A stretch of 42,938 nt of DNA from the NCBI GenBank assembly GCA_964497635.1, contig CAZCDB010000003.1, positions 2,582-45,519 on the forward strand, written 5' to 3'. Every line of letters starts with the position of its first letter. Within the stretch, counting starts at the first letter, position 1. A program made the translations under genes and the position numbers. The notes under the pieces were generated by a model that was not told where the DNA came from, searched no databases, and worked only from the letters and a program-made list of their open reading frames with translations. The stretch is from an uncultured Planctomycetia bacterium. Lineage in GTDB: Bacteria > Omnitrophota > Gorgyraeia > 2-02-FULL-51-18. This document shows, piece by piece, positions 20,770-36,668 of this stretch.

Positions 20770-20790
20770 TTTGTTAGTAGTATCAATTAT

Positions 20791-20819
20791 TTGAATATTG
20801 ACCCTTTGTCAGGCATAAT
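20791..20819 (+). promoter_or_regulatory. sigma70-type promoter for the giant gene
   Basis: TTGAAT-N17-CATAAT; GGAG at 20878-20881 precedes TTG 20887. Confidence 0.5.
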
Positions 20820-20886
20820 TTCCCAAACGGATAGACCCTTCGGCTACTCGACTGCTCACTTTGTTTAAACTTTAAACGGAGAGACT

Positions 20887-23800
20887 TTGTTCAATTTTTT
20901 CAGTCTTATTGTTAGATATACTCCAAGTAAGAGATTTTATCTCAAGCTGATCTCTTTGGGATTGGTATTTACTTTTCTAGGCCAAGAGCTCCTCATGGCG
21001 GCCCCGGATGGGTTTGGTGTGCGTCTTGCGGCTCCTTTTGACAATTTTCAATTACCCGATTCCGTAGCCCTTATTCGTGAAAAATTTTCTGCGCCCGGTG
21101 CGGATCGGTCCATCGTTCTTATCCAAGACGCGCATACCAATGAATCGGCGCAGCTCAATATCGCAAAAGCCATCGATCATATTTTAGTCAAAGAGCAGAA
21201 AATAAAGCATGTATTTTTGGAGGCGGGGACGGGCAATGACTCACTTTCATATCTCAGGCGGTTTTCTTCTATTGAAAAAAGAGAAAAAGTCGCACGGTCG
21301 TTTTTGCGGCGGGGGTTGATTCAGGGGCCGGATTATTTAGATCTGACTTCGGATAAAGCTTTTTCTTTGTGGGGTGTCGAAAATAAAAAACTTTATTGGG
21401 AAGGGTTGGCGCTTTATCGCGACCTCAAGAAAGATAGAGAGCTTCTCGTGGCTGGAGTGGACAGACTCAAACGCGCCAAAAAGACTCTTGCTACGCGTCT
21501 TTGGAGTCCTGCCTTACAGAAAATGGACTCAGGCCGAGAGAGTTTTCTTCGAGGGGAGCTTGGAGCGGCGGATTATTTTGACGCTCTGGTCATGGAAGCT
21601 CGCAAGCTGGGTGTGCCTCTGGAAGTATTTCCGCATTTATCCAAACTTACCGCTCTAAAAAATCAGGAGAAAGAAATCGATTTTAAAAAAGCGTCTTTTG
21701 AAGAAGCAGCACTGGTGGCGTCTTTGCCTGAGTCTGAGCGCACGTCTCTTTTGGCGGTAGCTGCGAAGCTTCGCCAAAAAGATGCTCAAAATCATCGCGA
21801 AGTCCAAGATGCGTTTTATTCTCTTCTCAAGGAAAAAATCAAGAACCCACTTTTTTATGTGCACCTTTCTAAATACATTGAGTATCTCGTAAATTCAAGG
21901 GGTTTTGACGCTGAGGTTGTACTGAAGGAGCGGGAAGATCTTGAAAAAATTGTGTTTGGTCAATTGGCGGGCTCAAGGGACTCGAGGCGTTTGCTTGAGG
22001 CCGCTCGTGCGGTAGAAATTTTGGAGAGACTTTGGCAGCTTGAGATTAGCAAGGAAGATTTTGAGGCCATTCAAAAGAATCCGGGGGCACACAGTTTTCT
22101 AAACCTCGCCGGATTTTTTAATTTGAAACTGATTGAGCTGGGTTCTCACACCGAGGATACGGTACTGTGGGATGAAAAATTTGGCACGGATTATGACAAG
22201 GCGATTAAATTTTATTCGCTAACCCTGGAGCGTGACGAAGCCTTTGTCGAAAACATGCTCAAAAAAATGGACAGAGCAGGCGAGAAAAAAGCGATCCTCG
22301 TCACCGGCGGTTTCCATACGGAGCATTTGAAAGACCTTTTACGCGCTCGCGGCATTTCCTACGCAGTGGTGATCCCCAGAATTTTGCAGGAAACGAATAA
22401 AGAAAAATACGAAAGTCTGCTTTTGGGGCAGATAAAGAAAAACTCATCTAAGATAAAAAATTCAGCCAAAGCGGATGCATGGGCGATCATTCCTCCAGCG
22501 GAAAATAGGCAAATAAGAATCCAGCTTAGTGAGGGGGTTGGGCGGGGATTGGCAGCGGCGCGGTTGGCATCGGCAAAGTTGGGCGGCAAGCACCGAGTAA
22601 GCTATGACGAAACTTTAAAAAAAGATAAGCTTGGAAAAAAATTAAGGGAAATATTCGATAGATCAAGAGTAAAACAAAAGTTTTTTTTAGAACAGATTGA
22701 TCTGGCATTGTCAGTGAAGGGCCATAGTGACGTTAGGATTGGTTCAATTACCTCCCTTCATACTAATTTTTTTGGCGGGATGGCAAGTTATAAGACTTTA
22801 GAACGGGTTGTAAGTGTTGCTGAAAGAATCAACTGGAGCCAGTTGTCAAAGAAAATAGAGGGAAGCGAGCGCCCGGTACGCCGTCCGACTGTAGCAGAAA
22901 GCATTGAAAGTCTTACGGCAGTTCAGAAAAGAGAGTTGATTGAAAAAAGGAAACAAAGTCCGAATGGTCAATTATTGATCAAAGAAGTCGCTCATGTGTT
23001 GGGGGTTACTTCAAGGGCTCTCGGGATCTTTTTTAAAAAAAATCCTTCAGTCCACAAAGCATTTCTTGAGGCGAACCCAATCGCTGCACGGTTGGCACAG
23101 CAGTTCAAGCTGGATATCAATCCCGGGAAATCTTTTTGGTTTCATGACCGAAGATCGGGCAAGGTTTTCCAGGTGCGGCTTGAGTCGATCGATACTATTC
23201 ATCGCCAGATTCAGTTACAGGTGTCGGAAAATGACAAGCCCATCGATGATTGGGGAGGTATTGAAGCTAAAACTTATGAAAGTGAAACTTCTCACAAAAT
23301 ATTTCCCGGGGTCGATGATATTTCAATTGTATTTGGGGATACTCTCACCAATTCACGAGTCGGGTTATTTTTCCCCCATTTCCCGTTTACTGTAAACTTG
23401 CGCCGCAGGAATACCGAAGATCAGCCCGCTTCCATCACTGCTTTTATGGCCGAGACCCGAAGACAGCAGGTTTTGGATGCTTGGGAAAAGTATTTGAAAG
23501 GTGTTGAAGATTATTATCTGTCGGATTCTCCACCAGCCGCTAATGAAGTTTCCACAGCGCTTGAAAAGTGGATCAATAATTCTTTCCGGTCGCCGGACGC
23601 GGCAGTGGAGCCTGATCCGGAAGCGATCGTGTCTTCTATGCGTCAAGCTTTGACAGAGAGGACACGACTCTCAAGGGAAAATATCGACAATGAGATCCAA
23701 GATGCTCGTCTGATCATGATAGAGATAACGAAGCCTATTTCCGAGAAGGAGATAGCTGTCAGTAGTGTCGGGAGATCGGAGGGTAGATTTGAGCTGGTGA

Positions 23801-26800
23801 ATGGAGTTTTGGGTCAACAAAAATTGGCATTAAGAGCGGCGCTGAAAGCTTATTTTGAATCTCGTGGTTTACCCACCGAAGATGCCGATGCCGTGGCCAA
23901 TACGCTGGTCCGGATGACTCCTGATGGGATCAAGCTTTTGATTCGGTGGGGTATTTTGAGTGGCATTCCTGATGAGCAGTCTCTGGAGAATGAGAATTTA
24001 TTTAATAAAATTAAACCACTAATCACTGTTTATGACCAAAAATATCCGGATAAAAAAGAGCTTTTGCTCAAGTATCTGCTTCCCGAGTCAATCCTTGAAT
24101 TGATGGCCCAACACGGTCTTGACCGCGAACGTTTTTTTAGGATTTTAAAGCTTCATCCATCTCCAATTATTGTCCTTCTGCGCCTGATCGATGAACATCC
24201 TCGTGTCGATTTAGGAGTGATCGAGAAGAAAGTAATACAACTTCGCCCCAAAACCCCTATCAGCGAGCAAAATTTATGGCGTATTATCGCTTTGGTGGGC
24301 ACAGAGGAAGCGGCTGCCTGGATTTTGAAAAAAACAAAGGATGTTTCGGCGTTATCTACTTCTATTTCTCTGGATAGAGCGTGGGATAAAGTCATCCGAG
24401 AGGAAGAATTACAAGGTGCGAGGCTAGCAGATGCTTCAACACCGGCTATCTCTCAACTTCATCCGACGATCGGAGACATAGGCCTCTTTGCCGATCGTTT
24501 TCCGATTTTTTCACGTGACAAACATGGGCTCATAAAGTCTGTTCAACGTCTTGCGATGTTACTGCGTAGCTGGATCCGAGAAGCAACAGAATATCTGGAG
24601 CATGGAACGCTTTATTATTACATGATCGAGGGAGTGCCGCACTATAAGGTGACCGGCTTAGGCAGAGACCAAATTGTACAATATTTGCATTACTTTTCTG
24701 GATTAGTGGAAGACTGGGTTAAAAAGGGGATTGTGGACTCGACGGAAGCCTCCATCCTTTCCGTTCAGGTTATGGACCTTTTCTCGTCCTTATTAAAGGG
24801 AAATTTTGATTCCACACAGTCTCATGTTGCAGACGAAGAGGCTAGGGCTGTTATCCGAGTAGCTGAGAACCTCTTGAGGTTTCCTATCAGCAGAATCGGC
24901 TGGGATAAAGAATTCGATAAAACTCCATTTTGGTTAGAAGGACTCTTAAAGGGTTTTCCTGAGAATGCCGCTTTTTATTTAGGCCTCCCAATTTTGCCTG
25001 CACAGGAAAATGCCGAGCGACTATCCAGCGACTATGCTCAATTTGAGGATAGTGACCATCCTGTTTTTATAACCAGCTATGAAAGCCCTGGTGAGCTTAA
25101 GTCACAGAGGATTGTTTATGTGAATCCGGCTTTTCTGAAGATGGTAGGTGGTGAAAAAAAGGATTGGATTGGCAAAAACTATTTTGAAAAAAATCAGAGA
25201 GAACTCGCCGAGAAATACACGCGTGATGACAAGAATGCCATGAACATGGGCCCCGGCCAATTTTTTCATGAAACAGAAACGAATCGAAGTGGGCAGAACC
25301 GGCAGAAACCTGTGACCGTCGAAACAGTCAAGCTCCCGTTTTATAATTATCGAGGCAAGTGGGTGGGTGTGCTTGCGATGTTTGATGTGATCCAAGGAGA
25401 GCAAAGTTCATACGAAATGAATCCCTCCTTACAGAGGACCTTGATAAGGGTACTGCGCCAGCAGCAACAGCTTGGGGTTGGCAGACAGCCAAGGCTGGCG
25501 CGGCTTGGGATTTTGGAGCCGATCAATAAGCCTGCTATTGGGGTCGGAGTTTTGGCTTTCTTGGCTGCTTTGACAGTCTCCTCGCTGATTCCTGCTTTAC
25601 TGATCGGATTTCTCTCAGCTTTAGCCATGGTCGGGATTCAGTCTGCAGTCCTATTAAATGAAGTCAAGGACACCACTTTGGAATTTGTTTTAAGAAATCA
25701 GATACTTTATCAGCGGCAAACTAGGATCGCGAATACGGATATCCAACAGCATTTTGCGGCACGTGTGAAGTCCGCTTTAGATTTCCTTTTGAATCTGACG
25801 CCCCCTACTCTTGAAACTCGTTTACTGGGAAAATTATCAGCACCTTCAATGGGTTGGAAAAATTTCCCAGAATTTCTCTCTGAAAATAGAGCTGCAGTTG
25901 AGCGCGCCGTGGTCCGGCGGGGTTTGAGGCATTTGAAGGCGGCGGCGACAGCCCCGTCGTATGACGGGGCGAGGTTGGCGATGGCCGACAAGCTTAAGAA
26001 TGAACTTTTGGAAGAAGTCTCTGACATCAATCGGACTGAGTATTTTGAGCTCGAGGGGTATCACATTCTTTTGTCATTTGGTAATAAAGGAAAGATCAAC
26101 GGGATTGCTGTTGGGAGGGAAGATCAGGAATCGATCCATGCCATGGAAGAGGATGAGGGCAGGGGCCGTGTTGCTGAAGTCACTTCCTTGGCGGGAGGTG
26201 TGCTCATCACGACCTACACGGATCAGAAAAAAACAGAGGTTGCCGAAAGGTGGCATGTCGGAATGGTAACAATTGAGGGCCAACCACGATACAGAATAGC
26301 CACTATGGAGCTGCAAGGAGAAGCTTTGCTTGCGGGTCGTGGAGTCGCCTTTGACGATTGGCGCGTGGATGAAGAGGGAAATCCGGCGGCGAGGTTGGCG
26401 GCTACTGTCAAAGACATCCCCCTGTCTACCCGAGGTTCTGGGAGGGAGAAACAACTTTTTCTGGAGGCGATGGTTCGTCACTCGGATCGTGTGGTGGTGA
26501 GTGATCCGAAGTCGCTGTATACAGTCTCCAAGTTTGGGGACGAGAAAGCTCCCAAGGATCCAAATAATTCGAAGGATCTCAGCAATTCGGAGCTTGCCAG
26601 TTTTTTAAGAGCCAAGGCCAATTTGGAAGAAATTTTTAAAACCATCCCTGAGCTATTCCCTGAGGCTCAATATCCGGGTTTGAGCGAAGAGATCAGGCAA
26701 TCTATGGCTGTCGTGGCGGTCATGACGGATACTTATCTTCTGGCTCCGATCTCTTTGAGTCCGTCGTACCGGTGGGGTCGTTGGAGAAATAGTCGTTCAA

Positions 26801-29800
26801 GACCTATTCTGTACGCCTCCTTCAAGGATCTATCTTCCATACGTTCACAGCGTGATCGAATAGGCCACCAAACATCCCAAGATATTATTTTGGCGGCTTA
26901 CGCGGTTGTGCATGGATGGTATTGGTACAAAACCTACAAGCAAAACCAAAGTATCCCTGCCGACAAACTTTCTGAATTATTGGCTAATTTCGAGAAGCAA
27001 TGGGATTTAAAAGAAGAGCCCTATCTGAGTTTTCGTTACAAGGCTAAAACCGCATGGCATCTTTTTTGGGACCGGTTTGCCTTGGCGCGCCACCGGAGAG
27101 AGCGCAGAAAAGATTTTGAATTTTACCGGGAGCATTTGAATATTCATGATGAAACGGTCCGCCAGATATTGGTGGATGCCGGGCAGACGGGTCCTGTGAT
27201 TGACCGGACGACAACCGAGAGTGAAGAAACGCGGTCTCATCGCAATGCTTTCACGCCGGTGTTTGAGCGTCTGAGAAATTTTGCAGAGGAGGCCATGGCC
27301 CTGGGAGATTTTGAACAAGCTCTTCTTATCGCCAAAGAAGCCAAGCGTTTTCTGCTTCACATCAATATTGTCGACAGCGGACAGCTGCCGATCGAAGTTT
27401 TTATCCGATACTTGAAGCTGTTGTTTCGCACGGGGCATTATCAGGAATTTTTAAAATCTATCCAAGAGTTCAAAGACGGTTTTATTTCGATCGATGAACA
27501 GCGTATTCAGGTCCCCAGCCAAGAAAAGGGATGGTTTACGAAGCTGTTGCAAATTTTTGAGCCTTGGTTTGAGGGGATCGTGCTGAGAAGTTTACAAATC
27601 ATGAAGGATTCTCCCGATAAACAAAACCTGAATCAGTTTGCTGATTTGGCCAGATGGCATTTAAGGGAAATTAAGTCGGAGGTTCAAAGGCTCGACGCGA
27701 CTGCGGCGCGGTTGGCGGAAGCTCCTGCAATTAGTATGTTTGAGGATTTTCCTGACACTAAGGATTTTGTTTCTCCGATCGAATACGGCAAAAAAGTCAG
27801 CGGGACTTTTATGCCGTTTCACCACATGAGGCACTTGCGGGATTGGGGGATTGGCAATTTTGAGTCGGCGATCAAGATGGCGGGGGTATTCAAAAAATTG
27901 GGCTTAAAGATCATGCAAATATTGCCCTTGATTTGGTCGGATGCTTTTAATTCCCCTTATTCGGAAGCCAGCTCTCGTGCGATTGATTTGCGCTATATCA
28001 GTGTGCCGATGCTGGTGGATCAGCTGACTCAAGAATTTGGCGAGAAAATCGAATTTTCAAAATATAAAGAATTTTTAGCTAAAAATAAAAGTCAGATTGA
28101 AGCGGTTCGCACAGGCGATGTGATCAATCACGAAGAAGTGATCCGCCTCAATAAAGAAGCGCTGGAGGCCATTTGGGAAAATCTAAGCCATTCTCCTGAG
28201 TTTGAGAATAGCAAAACTTTCGAGGCTTTTAAGACATTTAAATCAGAAAATGACGACTGGTTAGAGGATCACATGCTGTATCTTCTTTTGAAAGAAGAGA
28301 ATATGGCCAGAGACCCCTACAACGGCTGGGATTGGAGGACTTGGGTCGACGCCAGTGGCAATGAAGCAGAGTCGCTGAAGATTCGTCAGAGAGACCCGGC
28401 AAAAATTGACGCACTCAAAAAAGATCCCCGATACAGTTCCCGCATCGCATTGTATTCCTATATCCAGTTTGTGGCGTATTCCCAGTACGACAAGTTTGTC
28501 GCCGAAGCCAAGAAGCAGGGTGTGGATGTGGCCGTGGATGTGCCATTTGCGCGGGGAGGAGCGGACATCTGGATGAATCCAGAAATTTTTGGCCTCAGAA
28601 AAGAAAATGGCTACCAGAGGCCGTTCACGCACGGCTCTCTGCCTGAGGAAACGTACAACATTGGCCAATACTGGCAGTTTTTTGCCTATGATTGGAAGCA
28701 ACCAGGAACATTGAAGTACATGCTCAAGCTTTTTGAGCATTACCAGAAAATGGCCCCCTACATCCGCATTGACCACGCGTTGGGGTTTTATATGCCGTAT
28801 TTATTCATGGAGGATGGTAAGGGTGAGTTTACGCTCCAAAAGCTAGGAATTTTTGAGGATGTCTCAAGGATTGTGCAAGCTGCTAAAGCTGAAATCGCCC
28901 GAAATGTTAGCAGGACGGATGAGATAAAAGAGAGAGCCGCCAGAGAAGTCACCACAATTTTTATCCGTGCTCTAAAAAATTCGGAGCAGGTCAAAGCCAA
29001 TCCTCTCGTGGAGCGCCTGGTAAATTTGGCCTATCCCAACGATACAGAAGCGCTGAGCGAATACGCGATGATGTACGTGGCTCGTGAAGCTAAGAAGACA
29101 AATGAAGAATATGAAACTTTAGGGGATCCGTGGGTGCGCGTCAATGATGTGGTGGAGGCCAAAGTTTTTGACGAGGGCGATAAAAGACGGCCGGTTTGGA
29201 ACTATATCCGCCTCACGAAGCATGAATTTGGTAAAAAAGATCCAAATGACCGCAATCCCAACGAGAAAGAAAGACGCGATTATAAGAATGGCATGATCGA
29301 GTATCTTTTTGGCAGCGAGGAGCCAAAACCTGAAGATAATTTACGAGTTGCCTCTTACGACAAGGGTCCGGGTGAAGAATTTTTATCGCCTCTTCTGAAG
29401 CTTGCCAGGCAAAAAGGTACGACGGTTATTTCCGAAGCGCTTGCACGCTTTATACCGGACGGGCTTGAGAAGCCGCATTTAAGCGCCTATGACTATGTTT
29501 GCTCCATGTGGGGCAAAGAAAAAGAGGGTGCTGATAAGAATATCCACAATCCGCGCGCTCACCAGCCTTATGCTTTTAGGACTTACAGCCTGCATGACAC
29601 CAAAGCTTTGCGCGGAGACTGGAAAGAAGCGACAAAAGAGAAAAAGACCCAAATCCTGAATGATCTGGGTATTTCCCCCACGGAGGAGAATTTGTCTGAG
29701 TTGACTCCCCAAGTTCACAAAGCACTTTTGAAACTGAGTTTTGATTCCGATTCTTTGATGGTTGTGATCGGCTGGCTCGACATTTTGGGATACGATGACG

Positions 29801-32800
29801 ACAGAAAATTGAATAAGCCAGGAGAGACCGGTCATTGGAAAAACCGCCTTCTTGTCAGTGCGGAGATGCTAGACGCGGTTTTGGATGGGAAAACAGAGGT
29901 CGGTGGTGAGCCCATCTCCGAAGACGTCAGGACTGCCGTGAATGATCTGCGCGAGTTGACTGCCGAAAGAGAAGCAAGCTCTCAACGCGAGCTTTCAGAA
30001 AAAATAGAAAGGACCCTTATCCGTCATAGTCCGGATATGGACAACCACCGCATTGAAGTTGAGCAATTTCGTGATGGGTCCAACACCCAGATAGAACCCT
30101 TTTTAATCGAGAGCTATGTTTCAAGCACAGCGGAAAATGTATCAGTCAAAATACGTTATCGGGACAACGCGGGACAGATCCAGGAAAATGAATTTTCGAT
30201 GGTCCAAGACACCCAAGCTTCCACTCCCGAGGGAATCTCAAGGTATTCGATCGCACTAAAAGCCGGCCAAGTAGGGGAGTTTGAGTTTCAGATAGAGGCG
30301 AAGGATGAAAGTGGAAGCACCATTTCTTCTGAAAAAGGTTATTTATATGCGGTAGCCCATAAAGAGGGTCTCAACCCCACTTCAGGGGATTATTTCATGA
30401 AAAAGAGAGAGTATTCTTCCTTGAGTGTGGCCGCGGCACGGTTGGCGGAGAAATCCACCAGTCTTTATCAGCGAGTGGCTGAAGCCCTCCGTCTTGAGGG
30501 AATTCATCGTATTATCAATCACCCTGGCACTACTCACACCACCGATGTTTTAAATCAAGTTTTTCGGGAAAGAGAAAATCTTGTTTGGAGTAAGCTGTTA
30601 ACCTTTTTAGAACAACAACGCCTAGAAAAAGGAGCGGATGGAATTTATTTTTCACCCTATTTTTCAGTGCGGACGCTTCGAGAAGTCCTGAAAGAGAATG
30701 CTACTAATCCATCGGGAGTTTCTTTTCATCGAGGAACAGCTGGCACGACCCTTGATTTCAAGCTTTCCGCAAGGAATCCTAGAGAAATCGTCTATCTTGG
30801 GCTAGAGGCCGCAGAAAGTGCCGGAATTGAGATGAACGTCAATAGAGCTAGTGCTCTTAGGGTCAAAATCCGGGAAGGGACATCCCTCATGGCTGTTTAT
30901 GAGCCCGGTGAAAATCAGCTCGTGCTGGCAAGGCGTTTGGATGATCTTCTGAGATCCAACAAAAAAGAGGAGCGTGAGCGGGCGTTGCAGATTGCCAAGC
31001 GGGACATCTTGCTTGGGTTTGCCAGAGAGTTTACACGACAAAACAAATATGGGGCCGCCAGAGATCTTGTGGAACATAATATTTCGTATCCACCGCAGGA
31101 TGATCCAGTGGTTTATGAGCGTCTATCAAAGCAGTTTATGGAAGACATTGTCACGGGGGACGATTCTTTAATTTTTGTTACTTTTTTAAGAGCATTGATT
31201 CAATTAAGTCAGCAGTTTGCTCTTTTGAGACCCGCCATTTCTTGGTTTCAAAACTGGGTTTTTCAGCGTCTGACAAGTAATGCCATCACTGCTTCGGATC
31301 TAAAAAGGGCGGCTGATCATCTTGCAATATCTCTTGAAGATTACCCCTACGGATATATCGCGCTGCGAGGGCTTGCAGGATACATTCGTGATGGGTATGT
31401 TTCTGGCCAGCCGGATCTAGATATGGAAAGGGTATGGGCGCCTTGGGATCTTCTAGCTACTTTCGAGGAAGTTTATCGCTCAAGTCAAAAACGGAGCGCG
31501 AAGGTGGAATATTGGTTGCATCGAGTGAAATCATCATGGCAAGCTCGCTGGAAAAAACACCTAGAAACTTTACACTATGATCAGTTTTATGGGGTGGATG
31601 TCCAAAAACAGAATGGTCTAGAAGCTTTGTCGCCTAAAGCGACGCCGCTGGGCGTGGAATTTAATCTATCCAATCATCATCTGGAAAAGACGATTGATCA
31701 AGAAGTCAACCGTTTAAAAGCTAACGGTCATGAGGATTTAGACAAGCTGAGTCGTATCTTGGGAAGTAAAAAAGATACGAGATCAATCGTCAAGGCATTG
31801 GTCAGATCTGCCCGTAAACAGCCTGAGACGGTTTCTATTGCTGGAAATTTTCTCGAAAATAAACCCTTTGGAATGTCTCATATTCATGTGGGTCCACACT
31901 CACGAATGGTAGGGGACTTGGAGCAGGGCTGGAAAACCCGGCGCCAGGGTGTTTATTCAAAGGGTGAAGGCTGGATTTGGACGGTTGCTTTTGAAGTGCC
32001 CCCCTCTGCTTTTAAGGAACCCAAACATATCCAATACAAATATGTCATCCATTTAACCCGCGGAGAAGAAACTTATGATTTTTGGCTTCCAGATCCCTCA
32101 GTACAAGAACACACCACGGATGGGTATCACAGTTCAGTGATTAAAGTGAGTCCTAAAAAAGAGGAGATCAAGCGTATGACGCGCAGAGATCCCAGCCCCG
32201 GTGTTGTTTCTCTACAGCTAAATCTCGCTCTTGAGGCACCCTCGCCCAAAAGTTTAGCCCAGACGAAATTTAAAAATCCGGTGCAATGGCTTACCGCTAA
32301 CCTGCAATCTCCAAGATTTAGTCGGTATAGACGTATTCAGCTGGCCACAACGCTGACACTGGGGACTGCTCCATGGCTTTCGGGTTATGCACCAGCGGCC
32401 TATACTTCGGATCTAGGACAGTCGGAGGATTTTCGGGCTCTTGAAAAACGGGCAAGGGAGCTGGGTGTCGAGTTGGTTTATGATTTTGTTGCTGGCCACA
32501 CAGATCCTTATCGTCATCCGTTACCTCTATCCTCTTATTCTTACGCGGATCTTGGTGGGGGGATCGCCGGGACCCTCAGTATTTGGTCACATCATATTGA
32601 TGATCAAAACCCTCAGTCAGTAGCGCAGCTATTATGGTGGCTTAAGGCGGTCGGTATTCCCTCGACGAGGGCGGATGTTGGTGGAAGTATTTCTCAGTGG
32701 CTTCACTTGGAAAGGCGCCGGCAGGAGCCTGATGCCACCGCCATTGTGGAATGGGGTGACACGGCTGTTCAGGACCCATTTACTGAGCTTTACTTTAAGG

Positions 32801-35800
32801 ATATTTTTGAAGCTCTTGAAAGAACGAGTGCATCTGTACCATTCAATCAAATGTTACAACTTCTAGAGGATAAGCTCGCAGGCCTTGATGCCGACAAGCG
32901 GCTTTTGATGATTTGGAATAATCATGACGAGAGTCAATATCAGGGGGGGGTGGGTGCTTTTGTAAAAGGGCTAGACAAAGGCACTGCGGAGAAAAAACTC
33001 ATGGCTTTGTATACAGCTTACATAATTCTTCACTTGACCCATCTAAACCGGACAAGCGTCTTGGAATATTCTCCGGACCGGTTTGGATTTACAGGTCATG
33101 ATGTTTTTATGTTTGGTGAATATGGAAGGCGAGAAAGACCTAAGTGGAAAAAGAATAGAAATATTGATTTTATACGCTTACACAACAAGTTATTGGCGGT
33201 GGCAAACGCTGTGGCCCAAGAGAAAACACCGGCGGAAAGAGTCGGGACCAATAATTCCTACGTGGGCGCCGCGATCACGACAATCAACGACAAACGACAA
33301 CTTATTTTAACTAACGTTTCCGGAAGCCATCAGAGGGGAAATATATGGATCGATGGAAAGGCTTCCGACTTCGATCTTCCGGCTTATGGGGTGTCTATTC
33401 AGGATTTGCGGAGTTTGACGGCTGCACGGCTGGCCTACAAGGATGAAGTGAGAGCCTACGCTGATCAGGCGGACAATGTCGTGAGTGACCTTTTACAAAA
33501 AGCACCTGATCTGGCAGTGATCCAAAACCATGTCACAAGACTTGTTTATCCTGCCGCCGGAAACGACGTGAAGACCGTGGTTTCTTTGATGAAGGTTTTC
33601 CCCAAGGTCAACCATCTATATGTCATCGATACAGCCTATCAAGGCCCGCCGGCTATGAATGGCCGGACATGGAAAGACTATTGGGAAGAGCGGATAAGGG
33701 AAGCCGCCAGGGAAAATGGAGTCACTCCCGATCCAAATCTTGTTGTATCTGTTATCAGCCGGGATTATCACTTTCTTAATCACCGGGATATTCCTGTGCT
33801 TCCCGCAGGTCAGCATACGGTCGTGATCGAAAGCAGATGGCCTCATGGCATTCATTTTATGGAGCAAATTTTCAAACAGAATCGCGAGGGTGACGTGGTG
33901 ATCGCCTTTAAGCCGCCGCATACGGTTCGCGAATATTTAAACCCGCAAAGCCTGGCTCCCGATTCTGTTCAGGGTCTCAGTTTGCCTTATTTGTATGAAT
34001 CGAGAAGATATTGGATCGCGACCACCCTCCGGTCGATTTCGGAAAAATCAGCCCAGCTTCAAAGAGCCGCTGCCCGCCTCGCCAAGTCCTCGCTGCTGGA
34101 TCAAAAAGTGAGCCAGATGATTGCGGGGATTCGCGGGATGGATGGACATCTTTTGGAGCTGACGCAAATCGTCCAAAAAGAAATGAAGGCGGGTCTTAAA
34201 GGGAAAAAAAGTTCCCTACCCATGATTCCTAGCTCGGTCCCGGTGCCGGATCTTGCGGCGCTTGTCGGCCAACGTGTGGTGTACGCAGATCTGGGAGGAT
34301 CGACGATTCACATTGGAGCGATCGAGATAGGTAACGGTGGCAATATCAAAGTATTGTGGCATGAGGATATTAAGCTTGGCGACAACATCTCCATCGGTGG
34401 GCGAAAACTTTTTGATTATATTGCCCAAGAAATTGCCACTTCCATCAAGCGACATCAAAAACAAGGCTCAAAAGATATCACCAAGATGAGCTTTACTTTT
34501 TCATTTTCTCACCAAGACGGGAAAATTTTACCGGAAGCCCACGGAACCAAAGGATTTGATTTTAAAAATGTCGTGGGAAGAAATGTCAAAAATCTAGTCA
34601 ATCGGCGACTCAAAAAATTGGGCGTCGGCGGACTCCGTGTCGTCGTCGTGGCCAACGACACGGAAGGAGCCATGATCCTCGGAAATCTGACTCTTCCCCG
34701 GGTTATTTTTTCAGTCATCGCGGGGACAGGGTTTAATACGGCGGTGTGGATTGATGGAACACTGTACAACATGGAATCCGGTGGTCTGGTAATTCCGAAA
34801 GAGTGGCTAACGCCTCATGATCTCCCGCTTGTCAAACGCGGTGCCGAGGAGCTGATCGCAGGAAAATTTTTAGGAGAGCAGTTGCGCGTGAGGCTTCTGG
34901 ACTTGGCAAAAAATGATAATCTTTTTTCAGGACGTATTTCAAAAAAATTAACGATTGAAGAAGGCATTTCTTCTAAAAACGTTTCTAGGATTTACCTTGC
35001 TCGGAGTGATAAAAAAGTTCAGAGTATTTTGTACGGACTGGGAATCCGACAGGTAAGTCCGAGAGATATTCAAGCAGTCCGGCAAATCGCCGCCGCTTTA
35101 TTTGAGCGCTCTTACAAAGTCAACGCCGCCATCATCGCCGGCGGCTTTTCGTTGGAGCCTATAAAAACTAAATCTCCACAAATCGCCGCGGACGGAGCGC
35201 TCTGGAATATCCCAGCCTATCTTCAGGGCGCTCAGCGACAGCTTCGCAGTCTTGCGCAAAAACTAGATATAAGCGGAGAACCAAAGATTCATCAAGTCCA
35301 AAACGCCTCCGGTGTCGGCGTGGGCGCAATCGCGGCAGTGGTGACCCAAGCCCCGACGGGAGCGCGGTTGGCGACTTCACCGGCGACTCCCATCACTTAT
35401 GGAAGAGATCTCGCCTCTATTTTGGCCAATCAACTAGGGGAGCCTAAATTTTTTCCCTTGGCCAGATTGGGAAGTAATTCTCAAATTCACGTCGAAGTCG
35501 TTTTTAAGATATCCGATGCTGAATCCAAAAGACTGAGTCTTACATTAATGAATGGAGCGACTGTAAATCATCCAGATCCTTCTAAAAACGCACGGGATTT
35601 TTTCACAAGAAAATTGGATATTTCCGAAAGTGATTTTGATCAACTCGAATTTATCCTGACGGTTGATCGAGTCAGTCAAATACTTACCATCGAGCCGAAA
35701 GAGCCCAAAAAAATTGGGGCGAGGTTGGCTCTTCGGCGCGGCCTTTCAGGCTTTGCTCAGGACTTCTCGGAAGGACAGCTTAACGCATTGAAGGTTTTCA

Positions 35801-36648
35801 TCTGGGAGGCGGCTAAAGCTAAAGAATTTCACGGCGAGTTTCCCGTGGAAGTGGATCCTAATACCGATGCGGCGTTGCTTCGTGTGACCAAAAATTCTTC
35901 GGGAGTGGCCGAGCTTTGGGTGCGGGGTGGGACAGAACCTCTTTTGACTGTTTCGCGGCAGGAATATTTGGGTTTGAAACATCAATTAAAATCTTCCGTG
36001 AGCTTTAGTGGTTTGAAAGACCTTGCGGCCGGTGTTAACGCGCAGGTAGATTTCTTTTTGAATCAAGTGGATCCTCATATCGATCACGATAAGCCCGTTG
36101 CCCTTGAGCTTGATACCAAATATTTGGACTCCGTTTCTGAGAGTTATCTAGAGGCATTCATTCTTCATCTGGAAACAGAAGCCGAAAAAGTATATGGAAA
36201 AAATGTTTATTTTCTGCCGATAGGCAAGAGCGCTTCCCAGTGGATTCAAAGAGCGCCTAAAATATTTTCTACAGAGCCTCCTCAAGGTTTGTCCGAAATC
36301 CGCCGCGTGAAAGTTGTGCCGCCCGCTCAAGCCAATGACTTGTCCAAGCGTGATCTACCCCTATTACCTCTTGGAGAGGGTGATCTACCGCTGTTTAGTT
36401 TCATCCGCCTGGCCATCTATGAAGGCCGTCTACCAGATATTACGAATCGTCCTGAGGCATTTGACAACGCCTATGCGACACTGGCCGGAGGCCATCCGGA
36501 ATCAAGTATTTTAACCTTAATCCTTTCAGGTAAAGCAGATGCCGAGACAGCCGCTCAACACGCTGTCCGTGCCCTCCTGCGCGTAGATGTCAATCTAGCC
36601 ATTCGTTTCGTTGACCATATGAGGCGTATGCTCGCCCAATCCGCTTAA
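20887..36648 (+). CDS. Giant modular polyprotein-like protein (5253 aa) with [A/G]ARLA-delimited cargo domains
   Basis: Uninterrupted 15.8-kb ORF with recognisable PAS, GH77, GH13, methyltransferase-like and hexokinase domains, separated by 11 exact [A/G]ARLA motifs. Confidence 0.95.
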   Translation: MFNFFSLIVRYTPSKRFYLKLISLGLVFTFLGQELLMAAPDGFGVRLAAPFDNFQLPDSVALIREKFSAPGADRSIVLIQDAHTNESAQLNIAKAIDHILVKEQKIKHVFLEAGTGNDSLSYLRRFSSIEKREKVARSFLRRGLIQGPDYLDLTSDKAFSLWGVENKKLYWEGLALYRDLKKDRELLVAGVDRLKRAKKTLATRLWSPALQKMDSGRESFLRGELGAADYFDALVMEARKLGVPLEVFPHLSKLTALKNQEKEIDFKKASFEEAALVASLPESERTSLLAVAAKLRQKDAQNHREVQDAFYSLLKEKIKNPLFYVHLSKYIEYLVNSRGFDAEVVLKEREDLEKIVFGQLAGSRDSRRLLEAARAVEILERLWQLEISKEDFEAIQKNPGAHSFLNLAGFFNLKLIELGSHTEDTVLWDEKFGTDYDKAIKFYSLTLERDEAFVENMLKKMDRAGEKKAILVTGGFHTEHLKDLLRARGISYAVVIPRILQETNKEKYESLLLGQIKKNSSKIKNSAKADAWAIIPPAENRQIRIQLSEGVGRGLAAARLASAKLGGKHRVSYDETLKKDKLGKKLREIFDRSRVKQKFFLEQIDLALSVKGHSDVRIGSITSLHTNFFGGMASYKTLERVVSVAERINWSQLSKKIEGSERPVRRPTVAESIESLTAVQKRELIEKRKQSPNGQLLIKEVAHVLGVTSRALGIFFKKNPSVHKAFLEANPIAARLAQQFKLDINPGKSFWFHDRRSGKVFQVRLESIDTIHRQIQLQVSENDKPIDDWGGIEAKTYESETSHKIFPGVDDISIVFGDTLTNSRVGLFFPHFPFTVNLRRRNTEDQPASITAFMAETRRQQVLDAWEKYLKGVEDYYLSDSPPAANEVSTALEKWINNSFRSPDAAVEPDPEAIVSSMRQALTERTRLSRENIDNEIQDARLIMIEITKPISEKEIAVSSVGRSEGRFELVNGVLGQQKLALRAALKAYFESRGLPTEDADAVANTLVRMTPDGIKLLIRWGILSGIPDEQSLENENLFNKIKPLITVYDQKYPDKKELLLKYLLPESILELMAQHGLDRERFFRILKLHPSPIIVLLRLIDEHPRVDLGVIEKKVIQLRPKTPISEQNLWRIIALVGTEEAAAWILKKTKDVSALSTSISLDRAWDKVIREEELQGARLADASTPAISQLHPTIGDIGLFADRFPIFSRDKHGLIKSVQRLAMLLRSWIREATEYLEHGTLYYYMIEGVPHYKVTGLGRDQIVQYLHYFSGLVEDWVKKGIVDSTEASILSVQVMDLFSSLLKGNFDSTQSHVADEEARAVIRVAENLLRFPISRIGWDKEFDKTPFWLEGLLKGFPENAAFYLGLPILPAQENAERLSSDYAQFEDSDHPVFITSYESPGELKSQRIVYVNPAFLKMVGGEKKDWIGKNYFEKNQRELAEKYTRDDKNAMNMGPGQFFHETETNRSGQNRQKPVTVETVKLPFYNYRGKWVGVLAMFDVIQGEQSSYEMNPSLQRTLIRVLRQQQQLGVGRQPRLARLGILEPINKPAIGVGVLAFLAALTVSSLIPALLIGFLSALAMVGIQSAVLLNEVKDTTLEFVLRNQILYQRQTRIANTDIQQHFAARVKSALDFLLNLTPPTLETRLLGKLSAPSMGWKNFPEFLSENRAAVERAVVRRGLRHLKAAATAPSYDGARLAMADKLKNELLEEVSDINRTEYFELEGYHILLSFGNKGKINGIAVGREDQESIHAMEEDEGRGRVAEVTSLAGGVLITTYTDQKKTEVAERWHVGMVTIEGQPRYRIATMELQGEALLAGRGVAFDDWRVDEEGNPAARLAATVKDIPLSTRGSGREKQLFLEAMVRHSDRVVVSDPKSLYTVSKFGDEKAPKDPNNSKDLSNSELASFLRAKANLEEIFKTIPELFPEAQYPGLSEEIRQSMAVVAVMTDTYLLAPISLSPSYRWGRWRNSRSRPILYASFKDLSSIRSQRDRIGHQTSQDIILAAYAVVHGWYWYKTYKQNQSIPADKLSELLANFEKQWDLKEEPYLSFRYKAKTAWHLFWDRFALARHRRERRKDFEFYREHLNIHDETVRQILVDAGQTGPVIDRTTTESEETRSHRNAFTPVFERLRNFAEEAMALGDFEQALLIAKEAKRFLLHINIVDSGQLPIEVFIRYLKLLFRTGHYQEFLKSIQEFKDGFISIDEQRIQVPSQEKGWFTKLLQIFEPWFEGIVLRSLQIMKDSPDKQNLNQFADLARWHLREIKSEVQRLDATAARLAEAPAISMFEDFPDTKDFVSPIEYGKKVSGTFMPFHHMRHLRDWGIGNFESAIKMAGVFKKLGLKIMQILPLIWSDAFNSPYSEASSRAIDLRYISVPMLVDQLTQEFGEKIEFSKYKEFLAKNKSQIEAVRTGDVINHEEVIRLNKEALEAIWENLSHSPEFENSKTFEAFKTFKSENDDWLEDHMLYLLLKEENMARDPYNGWDWRTWVDASGNEAESLKIRQRDPAKIDALKKDPRYSSRIALYSYIQFVAYSQYDKFVAEAKKQGVDVAVDVPFARGGADIWMNPEIFGLRKENGYQRPFTHGSLPEETYNIGQYWQFFAYDWKQPGTLKYMLKLFEHYQKMAPYIRIDHALGFYMPYLFMEDGKGEFTLQKLGIFEDVSRIVQAAKAEIARNVSRTDEIKERAAREVTTIFIRALKNSEQVKANPLVERLVNLAYPNDTEALSEYAMMYVAREAKKTNEEYETLGDPWVRVNDVVEAKVFDEGDKRRPVWNYIRLTKHEFGKKDPNDRNPNEKERRDYKNGMIEYLFGSEEPKPEDNLRVASYDKGPGEEFLSPLLKLARQKGTTVISEALARFIPDGLEKPHLSAYDYVCSMWGKEKEGADKNIHNPRAHQPYAFRTYSLHDTKALRGDWKEATKEKKTQILNDLGISPTEENLSELTPQVHKALLKLSFDSDSLMVVIGWLDILGYDDDRKLNKPGETGHWKNRLLVSAEMLDAVLDGKTEVGGEPISEDVRTAVNDLRELTAEREASSQRELSEKIERTLIRHSPDMDNHRIEVEQFRDGSNTQIEPFLIESYVSSTAENVSVKIRYRDNAGQIQENEFSMVQDTQASTPEGISRYSIALKAGQVGEFEFQIEAKDESGSTISSEKGYLYAVAHKEGLNPTSGDYFMKKREYSSLSVAAARLAEKSTSLYQRVAEALRLEGIHRIINHPGTTHTTDVLNQVFRERENLVWSKLLTFLEQQRLEKGADGIYFSPYFSVRTLREVLKENATNPSGVSFHRGTAGTTLDFKLSARNPREIVYLGLEAAESAGIEMNVNRASALRVKIREGTSLMAVYEPGENQLVLARRLDDLLRSNKKEERERALQIAKRDILLGFAREFTRQNKYGAARDLVEHNISYPPQDDPVVYERLSKQFMEDIVTGDDSLIFVTFLRALIQLSQQFALLRPAISWFQNWVFQRLTSNAITASDLKRAADHLAISLEDYPYGYIALRGLAGYIRDGYVSGQPDLDMERVWAPWDLLATFEEVYRSSQKRSAKVEYWLHRVKSSWQARWKKHLETLHYDQFYGVDVQKQNGLEALSPKATPLGVEFNLSNHHLEKTIDQEVNRLKANGHEDLDKLSRILGSKKDTRSIVKALVRSARKQPETVSIAGNFLENKPFGMSHIHVGPHSRMVGDLEQGWKTRRQGVYSKGEGWIWTVAFEVPPSAFKEPKHIQYKYVIHLTRGEETYDFWLPDPSVQEHTTDGYHSSVIKVSPKKEEIKRMTRRDPSPGVVSLQLNLALEAPSPKSLAQTKFKNPVQWLTANLQSPRFSRYRRIQLATTLTLGTAPWLSGYAPAAYTSDLGQSEDFRALEKRARELGVELVYDFVAGHTDPYRHPLPLSSYSYADLGGGIAGTLSIWSHHIDDQNPQSVAQLLWWLKAVGIPSTRADVGGSISQWLHLERRRQEPDATAIVEWGDTAVQDPFTELYFKDIFEALERTSASVPFNQMLQLLEDKLAGLDADKRLLMIWNNHDESQYQGGVGAFVKGLDKGTAEKKLMALYTAYIILHLTHLNRTSVLEYSPDRFGFTGHDVFMFGEYGRRERPKWKKNRNIDFIRLHNKLLAVANAVAQEKTPAERVGTNNSYVGAAITTINDKRQLILTNVSGSHQRGNIWIDGKASDFDLPAYGVSIQDLRSLTAARLAYKDEVRAYADQADNVVSDLLQKAPDLAVIQNHVTRLVYPAAGNDVKTVVSLMKVFPKVNHLYVIDTAYQGPPAMNGRTWKDYWEERIREAARENGVTPDPNLVVSVISRDYHFLNHRDIPVLPAGQHTVVIESRWPHGIHFMEQIFKQNREGDVVIAFKPPHTVREYLNPQSLAPDSVQGLSLPYLYESRRYWIATTLRSISEKSAQLQRAAARLAKSSLLDQKVSQMIAGIRGMDGHLLELTQIVQKEMKAGLKGKKSSLPMIPSSVPVPDLAALVGQRVVYADLGGSTIHIGAIEIGNGGNIKVLWHEDIKLGDNISIGGRKLFDYIAQEIATSIKRHQKQGSKDITKMSFTFSFSHQDGKILPEAHGTKGFDFKNVVGRNVKNLVNRRLKKLGVGGLRVVVVANDTEGAMILGNLTLPRVIFSVIAGTGFNTAVWIDGTLYNMESGGLVIPKEWLTPHDLPLVKRGAEELIAGKFLGEQLRVRLLDLAKNDNLFSGRISKKLTIEEGISSKNVSRIYLARSDKKVQSILYGLGIRQVSPRDIQAVRQIAAALFERSYKVNAAIIAGGFSLEPIKTKSPQIAADGALWNIPAYLQGAQRQLRSLAQKLDISGEPKIHQVQNASGVGVGAIAAVVTQAPTGARLATSPATPITYGRDLASILANQLGEPKFFPLARLGSNSQIHVEVVFKISDAESKRLSLTLMNGATVNHPDPSKNARDFFTRKLDISESDFDQLEFILTVDRVSQILTIEPKEPKKIGARLALRRGLSGFAQDFSEGQLNALKVFIWEAAKAKEFHGEFPVEVDPNTDAALLRVTKNSSGVAELWVRGGTEPLLTVSRQEYLGLKHQLKSSVSFSGLKDLAAGVNAQVDFFLNQVDPHIDHDKPVALELDTKYLDSVSESYLEAFILHLETEAEKVYGKNVYFLPIGKSASQWIQRAPKIFSTEPPQGLSEIRRVKVVPPAQANDLSKRDLPLLPLGEGDLPLFSFIRLAIYEGRLPDITNRPEAFDNAYATLAGGHPESSILTLILSGKADAETAAQHAVRALLRVDVNLAIRFVDHMRRMLAQSA
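21100..22400 (+). other. Giant protein N-terminal domain, TraB/TIKI/EreA-ChaN-like with helical insertion
   Basis: IVLIQDAH (H83), VFLEAG (E112), LWGVE, ERDEAFVENML (R449), AILVTGGFH (H477); the order matches the H...E...R-D/N...GxxH pattern of that superfamily. Recognised by eye only. Confidence 0.55.
25051..25392 (+). other. PAS domain within the giant protein, followed by a hydrophobic hairpin (25531-25656)
   Basis: HPVFIT...RIVYVNPAFLKMVG...DWIGKN...YTRDD...VETVKLPFYNYRGKWVGVLAMF. Confidence 0.8.
27718..30432 (+). other. GH77 4-alpha-glucanotransferase (MalQ-like) module plus C-terminal beta-sandwich-like region
   Basis: WGIGNF, MQILPL, SPYS, WLEDHMLY, GADIW, GQYW, IRIDHALGF (D2629), ISEAL (E2850), SLHDT (D2904), LNKPG...HWKNR. 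Confidence 0.9.
31860..33420 (+). other. CBM-like domain plus GH13 alpha-amylase-family domain
   Basis: WIWTV...QYKYVI...WLPDP; LGQSEDFRALEKRARELGVELVYDFVAGHT (region I), TRADVG (D3930), IVEWG (E3955), WNNHDE (D4014); C-terminal beta domain LILTNVSG...FDLPAYGVSI. Confidence 0.8.
33436..34068 (+). other. Class I SAM-dependent methyltransferase-like module
   Basis: RLVYPAAGND (motif I-like) followed by HLYVID (acidic residue at the end of strand 2); 211-aa module. Confidence 0.45.
34084..35358 (+). other. Hexokinase module (Hexokinase_1/2 type)
   Basis: SSLPMIPSSV, YADLGGST, LFDYIA, SFTFSF, TKGFD..NVVGRNV, VANDT, IAGTGFN, YNMESG, EELIAGKFLGE, AADGAL. Confidence 0.92.
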
Positions 36649-36651
36649 TTT

Positions 36652-36660
36652 TGATATAAT
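36652..36660 (+). promoter_or_regulatory. Extended -10 promoter (TGA-TATAAT), probable leaderless ilvD transcript
   Basis: Perfect TGnTATAAT 8 nt before ATG 36669, no Shine-Dalgarno. Confidence 0.7.
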
Positions 36661-36668
36661 CCCCAGCT

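What the first reader, a model, noticed from the sequence alone, without database searches (positions are those of the whole stretch)
27718..35358. Glycogen/maltodextrin-to-glucose-6-phosphate pathway encoded as cargo in one polypeptide
Seen: GH77 (D2629/E2850/D2904), CBM plus GH13 (D3930/E3955/D4014) and hexokinase (DLGG, NDT, GTG) all retain the expected catalytic residues. Established: GH13 enzymes act on alpha-glucans, GH77 disproportionation releases glucose, and hexokinase phosphorylates it using ATP. This hexokinase family is mainly eukaryotic and patchy in bacteria. Inference: a coherent kit for mobilising storage glucan, needing an ATP-containing compartment such as a host or prey cytoplasm.
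Basis: partly seen in the sequence, partly recalled or inferred. Interest (0 to 1): 0.72.

Follow-up and report, generated by a model that had tools for sequence, protein, structure and literature searches.

The report
Glycogen-digesting cassettes in giant exported protein
A 5,253-residue protein of an uncultured Omnitrophota bacterium carries an amylomaltase, a divergent amylase-family enzyme and a hexokinase as swappable cassettes that would together turn glycogen into glucose-6-phosphate, likely outside the cell's own cytoplasm, although this exact trio is not kept even in the sister species.

Summary
GH77, GH13 and hexokinase modules with the stated residues lie in one 5,253-aa ORF. GH13 needed a profile and a fold to confirm. 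The CBM is unproven, and an unrelated 211-aa cassette separates GH13 from hexokinase.

The ORF is an Omnitrophota multi-enzyme giant: signal peptide, conserved head and tail, and cargo separated by [AG]ARLA motifs. This scan has found that family, its motifs and its lack of cysteine before, on other genomes.

The trio is not conserved. The syntenic orthologue in a same-genus genome keeps only GH77, and its hexokinase sits in another giant. None of 300 other genomes has all three cargo lineages. The theme does recur: in 6 of 12 other chains with this GH77 lineage, a different glucan enzyme or sugar kinase shares the chain (modest enrichment, P about 0.001-0.1).

The genome encodes separate MalQ, phosphorylase and ROK glucokinase, so the cargo is extra. 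The signal peptide and a 30-fold cysteine depletion point to export. Action inside prey is untested, and no UhpT/UhpC-type transporter was found. Verdict: a new variant of a known kind, first reading partly supported.

The parts
20887..36648 (+). Giant ORF, 5,253 aa, member of the Omnitrophota head-cargo-tail multi-enzyme family; 11 [AG]ARLA motifs; 1 cysteine
   Evidence: contigs span it
20887..21003 (+). Sec-type signal-like N-terminus (basic n-region, hydrophobic aa 21-39); cleavage site not predicted by a tool
   Evidence: sequence and hydropathy scan
21004..22554 (+). Conserved head domain shared by the giant paralogues; fold unassigned here
   Evidence: paralogues in G000 and G047; no PDB profile hit; one weak ChaN/Tiki hit E 0.015 in 1 of 13 members
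25522..25659 (+). 46-aa hydrophobic stretch, probably a two-helix membrane hairpin; the only transmembrane-like segment after the signal
27703..27717 (+). AARLA junction motif opening the GH77 cassette
27718..30432 (+). GH77 4-alpha-glucanotransferase cassette of a giant-resident lineage. Triad D2629/E2850/D2904, about 220 aa between nucleophile and acid/base, plus a C-terminal beta-rich domain (29947-30420) of unassigned family
30433..30447 (+). AARLA junction motif
30448..31806 (+). Unannotated region; its last roughly 190 aa are conserved in front of the GH13 homologues
31807..32166 (+). Putative carbohydrate-binding beta domain (CBM48-like by eye only; unproven)
   Evidence: (E 1.3)
32185..33414 (+). 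GH13 catalytic (beta/alpha)8 barrel plus domain C, triad D3930/E3955/D4014; subfamily unassigned; homologues found only in long proteins
33421..33435 (+). AARLA junction motif
33436..34068 (+). Separate 211-aa cassette of unknown function, matched in long ORFs of 7 other genomes; no link to glucans found
34069..34083 (+). AARLA junction motif opening the hexokinase cassette
34084..35358 (+). Hexokinase cassette (DLGGST, FTFSF, TKGF, NDT, GTGFN, NxE, DG motifs; no cysteine), in a long-branch clade made only of long proteins
35359..35373 (+). GARLA junction motif closing the hexokinase cassette
35731..36648 (+). Conserved tail domain (41% identical in the syntenic orthologue)

Best explanation
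The region holds three enzyme cassettes (GH77, GH13, hexokinase) inside one signal-peptide-bearing Omnitrophota giant protein; the chain is likely exported and likely cut at its [AG]ARLA motifs, and the freed enzymes would break glycogen-type glucan from prey or host cell contents into glucose and, where ATP is present, glucose-6-phosphate. Shown: the ORF, the cassettes, the invariant catalytic residues, the motifs, the cysteine loss, the separate housekeeping copies, and cassette exchange between paralogous giants. From established chemistry: GH13 enzymes act on alpha-glucans, MalQ-type GH77 disproportionates maltodextrins and frees glucose, and hexokinase needs ATP. Inferred: export, cleavage, activity, and the prey-derived substrate and ATP. 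The kit is not an inherited operon-like unit. Cassettes are shuffled quickly between giants, and selection appears to bring glucan enzymes and sugar kinases together repeatedly from different lineages.
For: Catalytic triads are invariant across cargo copies only 22-53% identical to this one. Hexokinase motifs align with human hexokinase-2. Signal-like N-terminus; the syntenic orthologue carries GH77 with no clear membrane segment before it. Cysteine is 0.028% in 20 G000 giants, against 1.03% in soluble non-signal proteins and 0.41% in signal-bearing ones. Cargo hexokinases have 0.16% against 1.4% in stand-alone ones of the same phylum. Housekeeping MalQ, phosphorylase and ROK glucokinase are encoded separately. 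[AG]ARLA occurs 84 times in giants against 0.41 expected, and 4 times in 389k aa of other ORFs. With motifs masked, all 8 ends of the GH77 and hexokinase blocks shared with G047 lie within 25 aa of a motif. Partners of cargo GH77 elsewhere: ROK (G073), GT5 (G165), another GH13 (G228), debranching enzyme plus phosphorylase (G187), hexokinase plus PGI (G046), GlgE (G242); also hexokinase in P0127. Cargo GH13 lies next to a phosphorylase in G239. Precedent in the same superphylum: Chlamydia secretes glycogen enzymes including MalQ (PMC4829429, passages).
Against: No cleavage, export or activity has been shown. The trio occurs in 0 of 300 other genomes. Six of 12 other cargo-GH77 chains show no partner in the part scanned. 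The clustering test is post hoc, rests on a two-genome background, and falls to P about 0.1 if partners occur once per 10,000 aa. Only 2 of 23 other hexokinase-bearing chains carry an alpha-glucan enzyme, while 11 of 23 carry some sugar or sugar-phosphate enzyme. No UhpT/UhpC-family transporter was found in G000 (86% complete) or five relatives, so the cell has no evident way to take up glucose-6-phosphate. If the stretch at aa 1546-1591 crosses the membrane once rather than twice, the cassettes would face the cytoplasm. Some cargo GH13 and GH77 copies elsewhere keep 10-12 cysteines. No protease or delivery route was identified.
Confidence: 0.4

Rival explanations
1. The chain is a polyprotein substitute for an operon. 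It is cut in the producer's cytoplasm, or the cassettes face inward past a single membrane pass, and the enzymes work on the cell's own glycogen with its own ATP.
For: Hexokinase needs ATP. No hexose-phosphate importer was found. Other cargo is typically cytoplasmic: PAS, DnaJ, HATPase, response regulator, PPDK. The 2026 preprint keeps an inner-membrane, cytoplasm-facing reading open for nearly half of long proteins.
Against: A full stand-alone cytoplasmic set exists. Cargo has lost cysteine far below cytoplasmic levels. The orthologue has no clear membrane segment between signal and GH77.
Confidence: 0.2
2. The chain stays whole, or stays associated, as a surface or periplasmic multi-enzyme complex that digests environmental or necromass starch and glycogen for import as glucose or maltodextrin. 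The hexokinase is a passenger or a glucose-binding module.
For: Signal peptide plus a membrane hairpin. Putative glucan-binding beta domains on both GH13 and GH77 (both non-significant). West-Roberts et al. suggest extracellular pre-processing of sugars before import.
Against: The cargo hexokinase clade keeps both ATP-site and sugar-site motifs. The strict motif at every joint has no clear role in an uncut chain. Kinases, PGI, PGM and FBPase recur as cargo.
Confidence: 0.2
3. The adjacency is chance. Giants are fast-shuffling cassette arrays rich in sugar enzymes, and the trio has no joint function.
For: Only 10.3% of G000 internal cargo residues have a homologue in the 23 G047 giants fetched. 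The orthologue lacks GH13 and hexokinase. An unrelated cassette sits between GH13 and hexokinase. Sugar metabolism is one of the two largest cargo classes in print.
Against: Four partners within 1,000 aa of 11 cargo GH77 modules against 0.45-0.97 expected, and 7 against 1.05-2.29 chain-wide. The partners come from different enzyme families in different bacterial families.
Confidence: 0.2

Closest known systems
Omnitrophota multi-enzyme giant proteins ('Archaeovorins', West-Roberts et al., bioRxiv 10.1101/2023.11.21.568195; 'multi-enzyme metabolic clusters', bioRxiv 10.64898/2026.06.07.730766)
   Same: Same phylum. Signal peptide plus membrane segments, many unrelated domains, and sugar-metabolism cargo (GT5, PGM, FBPase, PPDK, ROK; one giant with 9 hexokinase copies) predicted to lie outside the cytoplasm.
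   Different: This one is 5,253 aa, under those papers' 10,000-aa threshold. In the parts read, they describe no junction motif (one states that cleavage points are unknown), no GH77 or GH13 glucan kit, and no cassette exchange between paralogues.
Chlamydia trachomatis secreted glycogen enzymes (GlgA, GlgB, GlgX, GlgP, MalQ, PGM) with UhpC uptake (PMC4829429, PMC9251005)
   Same: A host-associated PVC bacterium places glycogen enzymes, including MalQ, outside its cytoplasm to yield glucose-6-phosphate.
   Different: Chlamydia uses separate proteins with type III signals, lacks hexokinase, goes through phosphorylase and PGM, and imports with UhpC. Here the enzymes are cassettes in one Sec-signal chain, and no UhpC-family gene was found.
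E. coli-type maltodextrin pathway (MalQ, MalP, amylase-family enzymes, glucokinase)
   Same: Same overall chemistry: glucan to maltodextrin to glucose to glucose-6-phosphate.
   Different: That pathway is cytoplasmic and uses separate genes. G000 has its own version (MalQ, phosphorylase, ROK). The cargo GH77 scores far below MalQ cut-offs (109 bits against 206 for TIGR00217) and has a long insertion and an extra C-terminal domain.
MARTX toxins (PMC2900308)
   Same: Very large secreted chain with conserved ends and interchangeable central cargo. MARTX is released by cuts at small-Leu-small sites, which [AG]AR-L-[AS] only partly resembles.
   Different: No RTX/MARTX repeats or C80 peptidase among the Pfam hits. 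The cargo is metabolic. There is a Sec-type signal. No cleavage is shown.

Membership tests
GH77 4-alpha-glucanotransferase | Match to the family model over its cut-off | tested here: met
   PF02446 199.8 bits, cut-off 25; all 13 PDB hits are 4-alpha-glucanotransferases
GH77 4-alpha-glucanotransferase | Asp/Glu/Asp catalytic triad | tested here: met
   Invariant in 10 of 10 cargo copies. The nucleophile and HD motifs align with solved enzymes. The Glu is assigned by invariance and motif, since the insertion breaks the pairwise alignment.
GH77 4-alpha-glucanotransferase | Disproportionation activity | not testable with these tools
   Needs an assay
Housekeeping MalQ equivalog (TIGR00217 / PRK14508) | Score over the equivalog cut-off | tested here: not met
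   108.9 against 205.65, and 170.7 against 556. The stand-alone C49 copy scores 201.7 and 502.3, much closer but also under
GH13 alpha-amylase family | (beta/alpha)8 barrel plus C-terminal beta domain | tested here: met
   AF2 model, Z 26.5 to 4gkl over residues 88-496; the top rows are GH13-fold proteins
GH13 alpha-amylase family | Conserved regions I-IV with Asp/Glu/Asp triad | tested here: met
   D-x-V-x-x-H-T, R-x-D, E and H-D are invariant in 6 of 6; triad invariant in 8 of 8
GH13 alpha-amylase family | Pfam PF00128 cut-off on the single sequence | tested here: not met
   13.3 bits against 22; one homologue passes with 28.4
A named GH13 subfamily (amylase, debranching, branching, GlgE) | Clear best match or specificity motifs | tested here: inconclusive
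   At most 18% identity to any listed structure; amylases, branching enzymes and GlgE score alike
CBM48 or related starch-binding module | Profile or fold match | tested here: inconclusive
   E 1.3 to phosphoglucan phosphatase DSP4; no Pfam hit; pLDDT under 50
Hexokinase (PF00349 + PF03727) | Both domains over cut-off with sugar and ATP motifs | tested here: met
   90.5 and 75.4 bits; motifs aligned to hexokinase-2. DLGGT is DLGGS here and in the listed clade members
Hexokinase (PF00349 + PF03727) | ATP-dependent glucose phosphorylation | not testable with these tools
   Needs an assay; sugar specificity unknown
Omnitrophota multi-enzyme giant proteins | Omnitrophota host | tested here: met
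   The same-genus record is titled Candidatus Omnitrophica; homologues are named Omnitrophota
Omnitrophota multi-enzyme giant proteins | Signal peptide or membrane helices plus many unrelated catalytic domains | tested here: met
   (hydropathy scan, not a dedicated predictor)
Archaeovorins in the strict sense | Length of 30,000 aa or more, many membrane helices, SecA-DEAD domain | tested here: not met
   5,253 aa, one hydrophobic hairpin, no SecA hit
MARTX toxins | Terminal repeats and C80 cysteine peptidase domain | tested here: not met
   No such Pfam hit in the chain, which has a single cysteine. The genome search for PF11713 found none in 13 genomes, but its control was silent
Chlamydia-type glycogen scavenging | UhpC/UhpT hexose-phosphate transporter | tested here: not met
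   Best 31.6 bits against a cut-off of 407.75 in G000; 0 of 5 relatives over the cut-off; G000 is 86% complete

The most novel reading that the evidence does not exclude
Omnitrophota build prey-metabolism kits as exported polyproteins. Cassettes are shuffled between paralogous giants at a short motif, selection assembles glycogen-mobilising enzymes and sugar kinases in one chain, and after delivery and motif-specific cleavage the enzymes drain the prey's glycogen using the prey's ATP. This would be a polyprotein-based parallel to chlamydial secretion of glycogen enzymes.
Probability: 0.2. Interest if true: 0.85.

Novelty: new variant of a known kind. Interest (0 to 1): 0.5.

Why it matters
What Omnitrophota giant proteins do, and whether they are cut, is an open question in print. 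This protein is short enough to work with and has three motif-bounded, assayable enzymes, with a natural control: a syntenic orthologue that keeps only GH77. It also yields two enzyme lineages seen so far only in long proteins, an unassigned GH13 group and an insertion-bearing GH77. The comparison shows direct cassette exchange between paralogues, and suggests cargo is grouped by pathway rather than at random. If the enzymes act on prey contents, it would be a new way for a small epibiont to feed.

Tried and rejected
Assembly artefact: rejected. Contigs from 3 of 4 runs span the region without gaps or joints at the motifs. All four runs are one sample, possibly the source, and contigs drop rare variants. 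No RNA holder was listed.

Conserved three-enzyme unit: rejected.

Eukaryotic origin of the hexokinase: not supported. Its nearest relatives are all long proteins. In a FastTree tree of 133 rows (the first 50 of 104 short database rows kept) it sits in a 10-row long-branch clade of long proteins, apart from the stand-alone Omnitrophota genes. The tree is midpoint-rooted and most rows have no taxon, so no donor is claimed. The slower tree run did not finish.

A single-sequence fold of the GH13 region failed (pLDDT 35).

Stand-alone relatives of the GH13: none among 7,996 candidates of 259-895 aa. This is weak evidence of absence.

The GH77 C-terminal domain, the head domain, the 211-aa cassette and the two upstream paralogues had no significant PDB profile hit.

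ATP/ADP translocase and C80 peptidase: none found, but both controls were silent.

A pure DNA site as the motif: rejected. GCRCGGTTGGC occurs in giants only in the coding frame, and 40 different spellings encode the 93 motifs, so the peptide is under selection.

An apparent PolA-GlgA fusion on C2 is an N-gap artefact.

The Atlas look-up with homologue P0154 gave alpha-amylase clusters at 0.82, a lead only.

Literature searches listed no paper on this motif or on GH77/GH13 kits in Omnitrophota giants. The bioRxiv supplements were not seen and may list such domains.


Full report
SETTING. The finding lies within one ORF, window 20887-36648 (+), 5,253 aa. The genome (G000) has 1.46 Mb in 102 contigs and is 85.6% complete. 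A same-genus record is titled Candidatus Omnitrophica, and homologues carry Omnitrophota names. Single contigs in three of four runs (one sample, possibly the source) span 21517-38017 at even depth without gaps, so the fusion is real.

OBSERVATION. Pfam finds GH77 (E 1e-58) and both hexokinase domains (1.6e-25, 5.8e-21), but no GH13. I confirmed GH13 another way. Five homologues were found in 300 other genomes. Their alignment keeps regions I-IV and the triad invariant. The profile hits 242 PDB sequences, and the 60 listed are all alpha-amylase-family. An 8-sequence AF2 model (pLDDT 70) matches 4gkl at Z 26.5, rmsd 3.9, 336 aligned. Identity to listed structures is at most 18%, so the subfamily and reaction are open. 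The GH77 triad is invariant in 10 of 10 cargo copies at 25-53% identity, with about 220 aa between nucleophile and acid/base and an extra C-terminal beta-rich domain. The hexokinase keeps the motifs that align with human hexokinase-2; their functional roles are recalled, not tested. The CBM is unproven (E 1.3; none). The enzymes are not contiguous: a separate 211-aa cassette, matched in long ORFs of 7 other genomes, lies between GH13 and hexokinase.

ARCHITECTURE. The chain has 11 [AG]ARLA motifs, and the finding's limits are two of them. The motif occurs 84 times in 20 giant ORFs against 0.41 expected, and 4 times in 389k aa of other ORFs (the giant set was defined by carrying a motif and being at least 990 aa). 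Motif-bounded segments hold whole enzymes. This scan has already noted the family, its motifs and its cysteine loss on other genomes. In print, Omnitrophota giants with sugar-metabolism cargo are known (West-Roberts preprint: part 1 of 8, passages and section 8; 2026 preprint: passages, part 3 of 9 and section 21; PMC10066038: passages).

IS THE TRIO CONSERVED? No. The same-genus genome G047 has a syntenic orthologue between panE and ilvD, where most listed neighbours are 65-94% identical. It is 2,676 aa and shares only the head (59%), GH77 (51%) and tail (41%). G047's hexokinase (50%) sits in a different giant at another locus. With motifs masked, all 8 ends of the shared GH77 and hexokinase blocks fall within 25 aa of a motif (chance about 0.09 each; the ends are not independent, and linkers are natural alignment ends). 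Only 10.3% of 38,427 internal cargo residues of G000 have a homologue in the 23 G047 giants fetched. Across 300 other genomes, cargo hexokinase is in 18, this GH77 lineage in 11 (78 weaker matches were not listed, and weaker matches in other giants were not followed), and this GH13 in 5. None has all three.

IS THE THEME RECURRENT? Partly. Of 11 other genomes with this GH77, six have a glucan enzyme or sugar kinase in the same chain: ROK directly before it (G073, partial Pfam match), GT5 directly before it (G165), another GH13 directly before it (G228), a debranching enzyme and a phosphorylase after it (G187), hexokinase with PGI and FBPase (G046), and GlgE 2,500 aa upstream (G242). G047, G134, G052, G186 and G138 show none in the parts scanned. 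A twelfth chain, L146, shows none and is not in the statistics. P0127 has hexokinase directly before this GH77. One of seven GH13 homologues abuts a phosphorylase. Within 1,000 aa of the 11 GH77 modules there are 4 partners against 0.45-0.97 expected (P 0.001-0.017), or 1.75 expected under a generous background (P 0.10). The test is post hoc, hand-tallied, and its background comes from two genomes. Of 23 other hexokinase chains, 11 carry some sugar or sugar-phosphate enzyme but only 2 an alpha-glucan enzyme.

REDUNDANCY. G000 encodes stand-alone MalQ, a ROK glucokinase over the TIGR00744 cut-off, glucan phosphorylase, and GT5, PGM, PGI, PFK and transaldolase homologues. The cargo is therefore extra. 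Hexokinase is native to the phylum: 33 of 301 genomes, with 17 stand-alone genes and 19 in long ORFs. This copy falls in a long-branch clade of long proteins.

COMPARTMENT. The chain starts with a signal-like sequence and has one 46-aa hydrophobic stretch (aa 1546-1591), probably a hairpin. The orthologue has no clear membrane segment before GH77. Cysteine is 0.028% in G000 giants, 0.41% in signal-bearing soluble proteins and 1.03% in the rest (crude hydropathy classes). Cargo hexokinases have 0.16% against 1.4% in stand-alone ones (P 2e-21, kin not independent), and no other residue is depleted comparably. Low cysteine is typical of type V secreted proteins (PMC8151025, passage). Two T2SS-F/PilC genes are present. 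Against a simple scavenging model, no UhpT/UhpC-family transporter was found in G000 or five relatives. Chlamydia, which secretes GlgA, GlgB, GlgX, GlgP and MalQ signals and imports glucose-6-phosphate, has one (PMC4829429, passages; PMC9251005, abstract).

MECHANISM. Most likely the chain is exported and cut at the motifs, and the enzymes act on glycogen-type glucan from prey or host contents. GH13 would make maltodextrins, GH77 would free glucose, and hexokinase would phosphorylate it where prey ATP is present (confidence 0.4). Export is inferred from composition and signal. Cleavage, activity and site of action are untested, and no protease or delivery route was found. Rivals are cytoplasmic use, an uncut surface complex, and chance adjacency (0.2 each). 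MARTX toxins offer an analogy for conserved ends with released cargo (PMC2900308, passages), but membership fails.

VERDICT. But this is a transient arrangement in a shuffling cassette array, not a conserved pathway polypeptide, and the prey-cytoplasm step is a hypothesis. New variant of a known kind; interest 0.5.

Noticed in passing
window 22555-35730 and other giants of G000 and G047: The junction motif has a strong synonymous bias toward GCR CGG TTG GC (CGG 51 of 93 against 15-27% in context controls; TTG 58 of 93; repeated in G047). In R-S-E-x-R motifs of other genomes, 96 of 100 serines are TCN. This suggests motif copies are inherited as DNA with the cassettes, or serve as short crossover points, as well as being selected as peptides.
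   Followed up: partly
window 16989-19064 and 19111-20769: Two 53%-identical signal-peptide paralogues with no Pfam, NCBIfam or PDB profile hit, directly upstream of the giant and absent from the syntenic G047 locus. The family is in 30 of 301 genomes, both stand-alone and as cargo in giants.
   Followed up: partly
L006:9302-16879 (G000 C4) and L102:7818-15368 (G047 C1): Giants with 70%-identical heads both carry an FBPase followed later by a transaldolase, but the FBPases match different Pfam families (GlpX against FBPase_3). This may be functional replacement within a locus.
   Followed up: no
window 33436-34068: Cassette family with h-h-Y-P-A-x-G-x-D and I-D-K-x-P-G motifs that look like a SAM-binding Rossmann fold by eye (recalled pattern); no database hit. 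It is bounded by junction-like motifs in G035 too.
   Followed up: partly
L007:11297-14752 (G000 C18): Another giant carries a GT5 glycogen-synthase module directly followed by a weak nucleotidyltransferase-like module, a possible glycogen-synthesis pair.
   Followed up: no
window 19500-24850 versus 25000-36600: Strain-level base differences in the laid contigs cluster upstream, in the head and near the PAS module; only two are listed in the enzyme cassettes (12 rows not shown).
   Followed up: no
G000 C2:34698-38834: An apparent PolA-glycogen synthase fusion is an artefact of an N gap.
   Followed up: yes
window 3-2003 and 4033-9222 (minus strand): Two further large signal-peptide ORFs (667 aa, open at the window end, and a 1,729-aa Ala/Lys/Glu-rich protein) with no Pfam hit and no junction motif.
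   Followed up: no
window 12057-13452: Tandem pair of thymidylate-kinase genes, conserved in G047.
   Followed up: no
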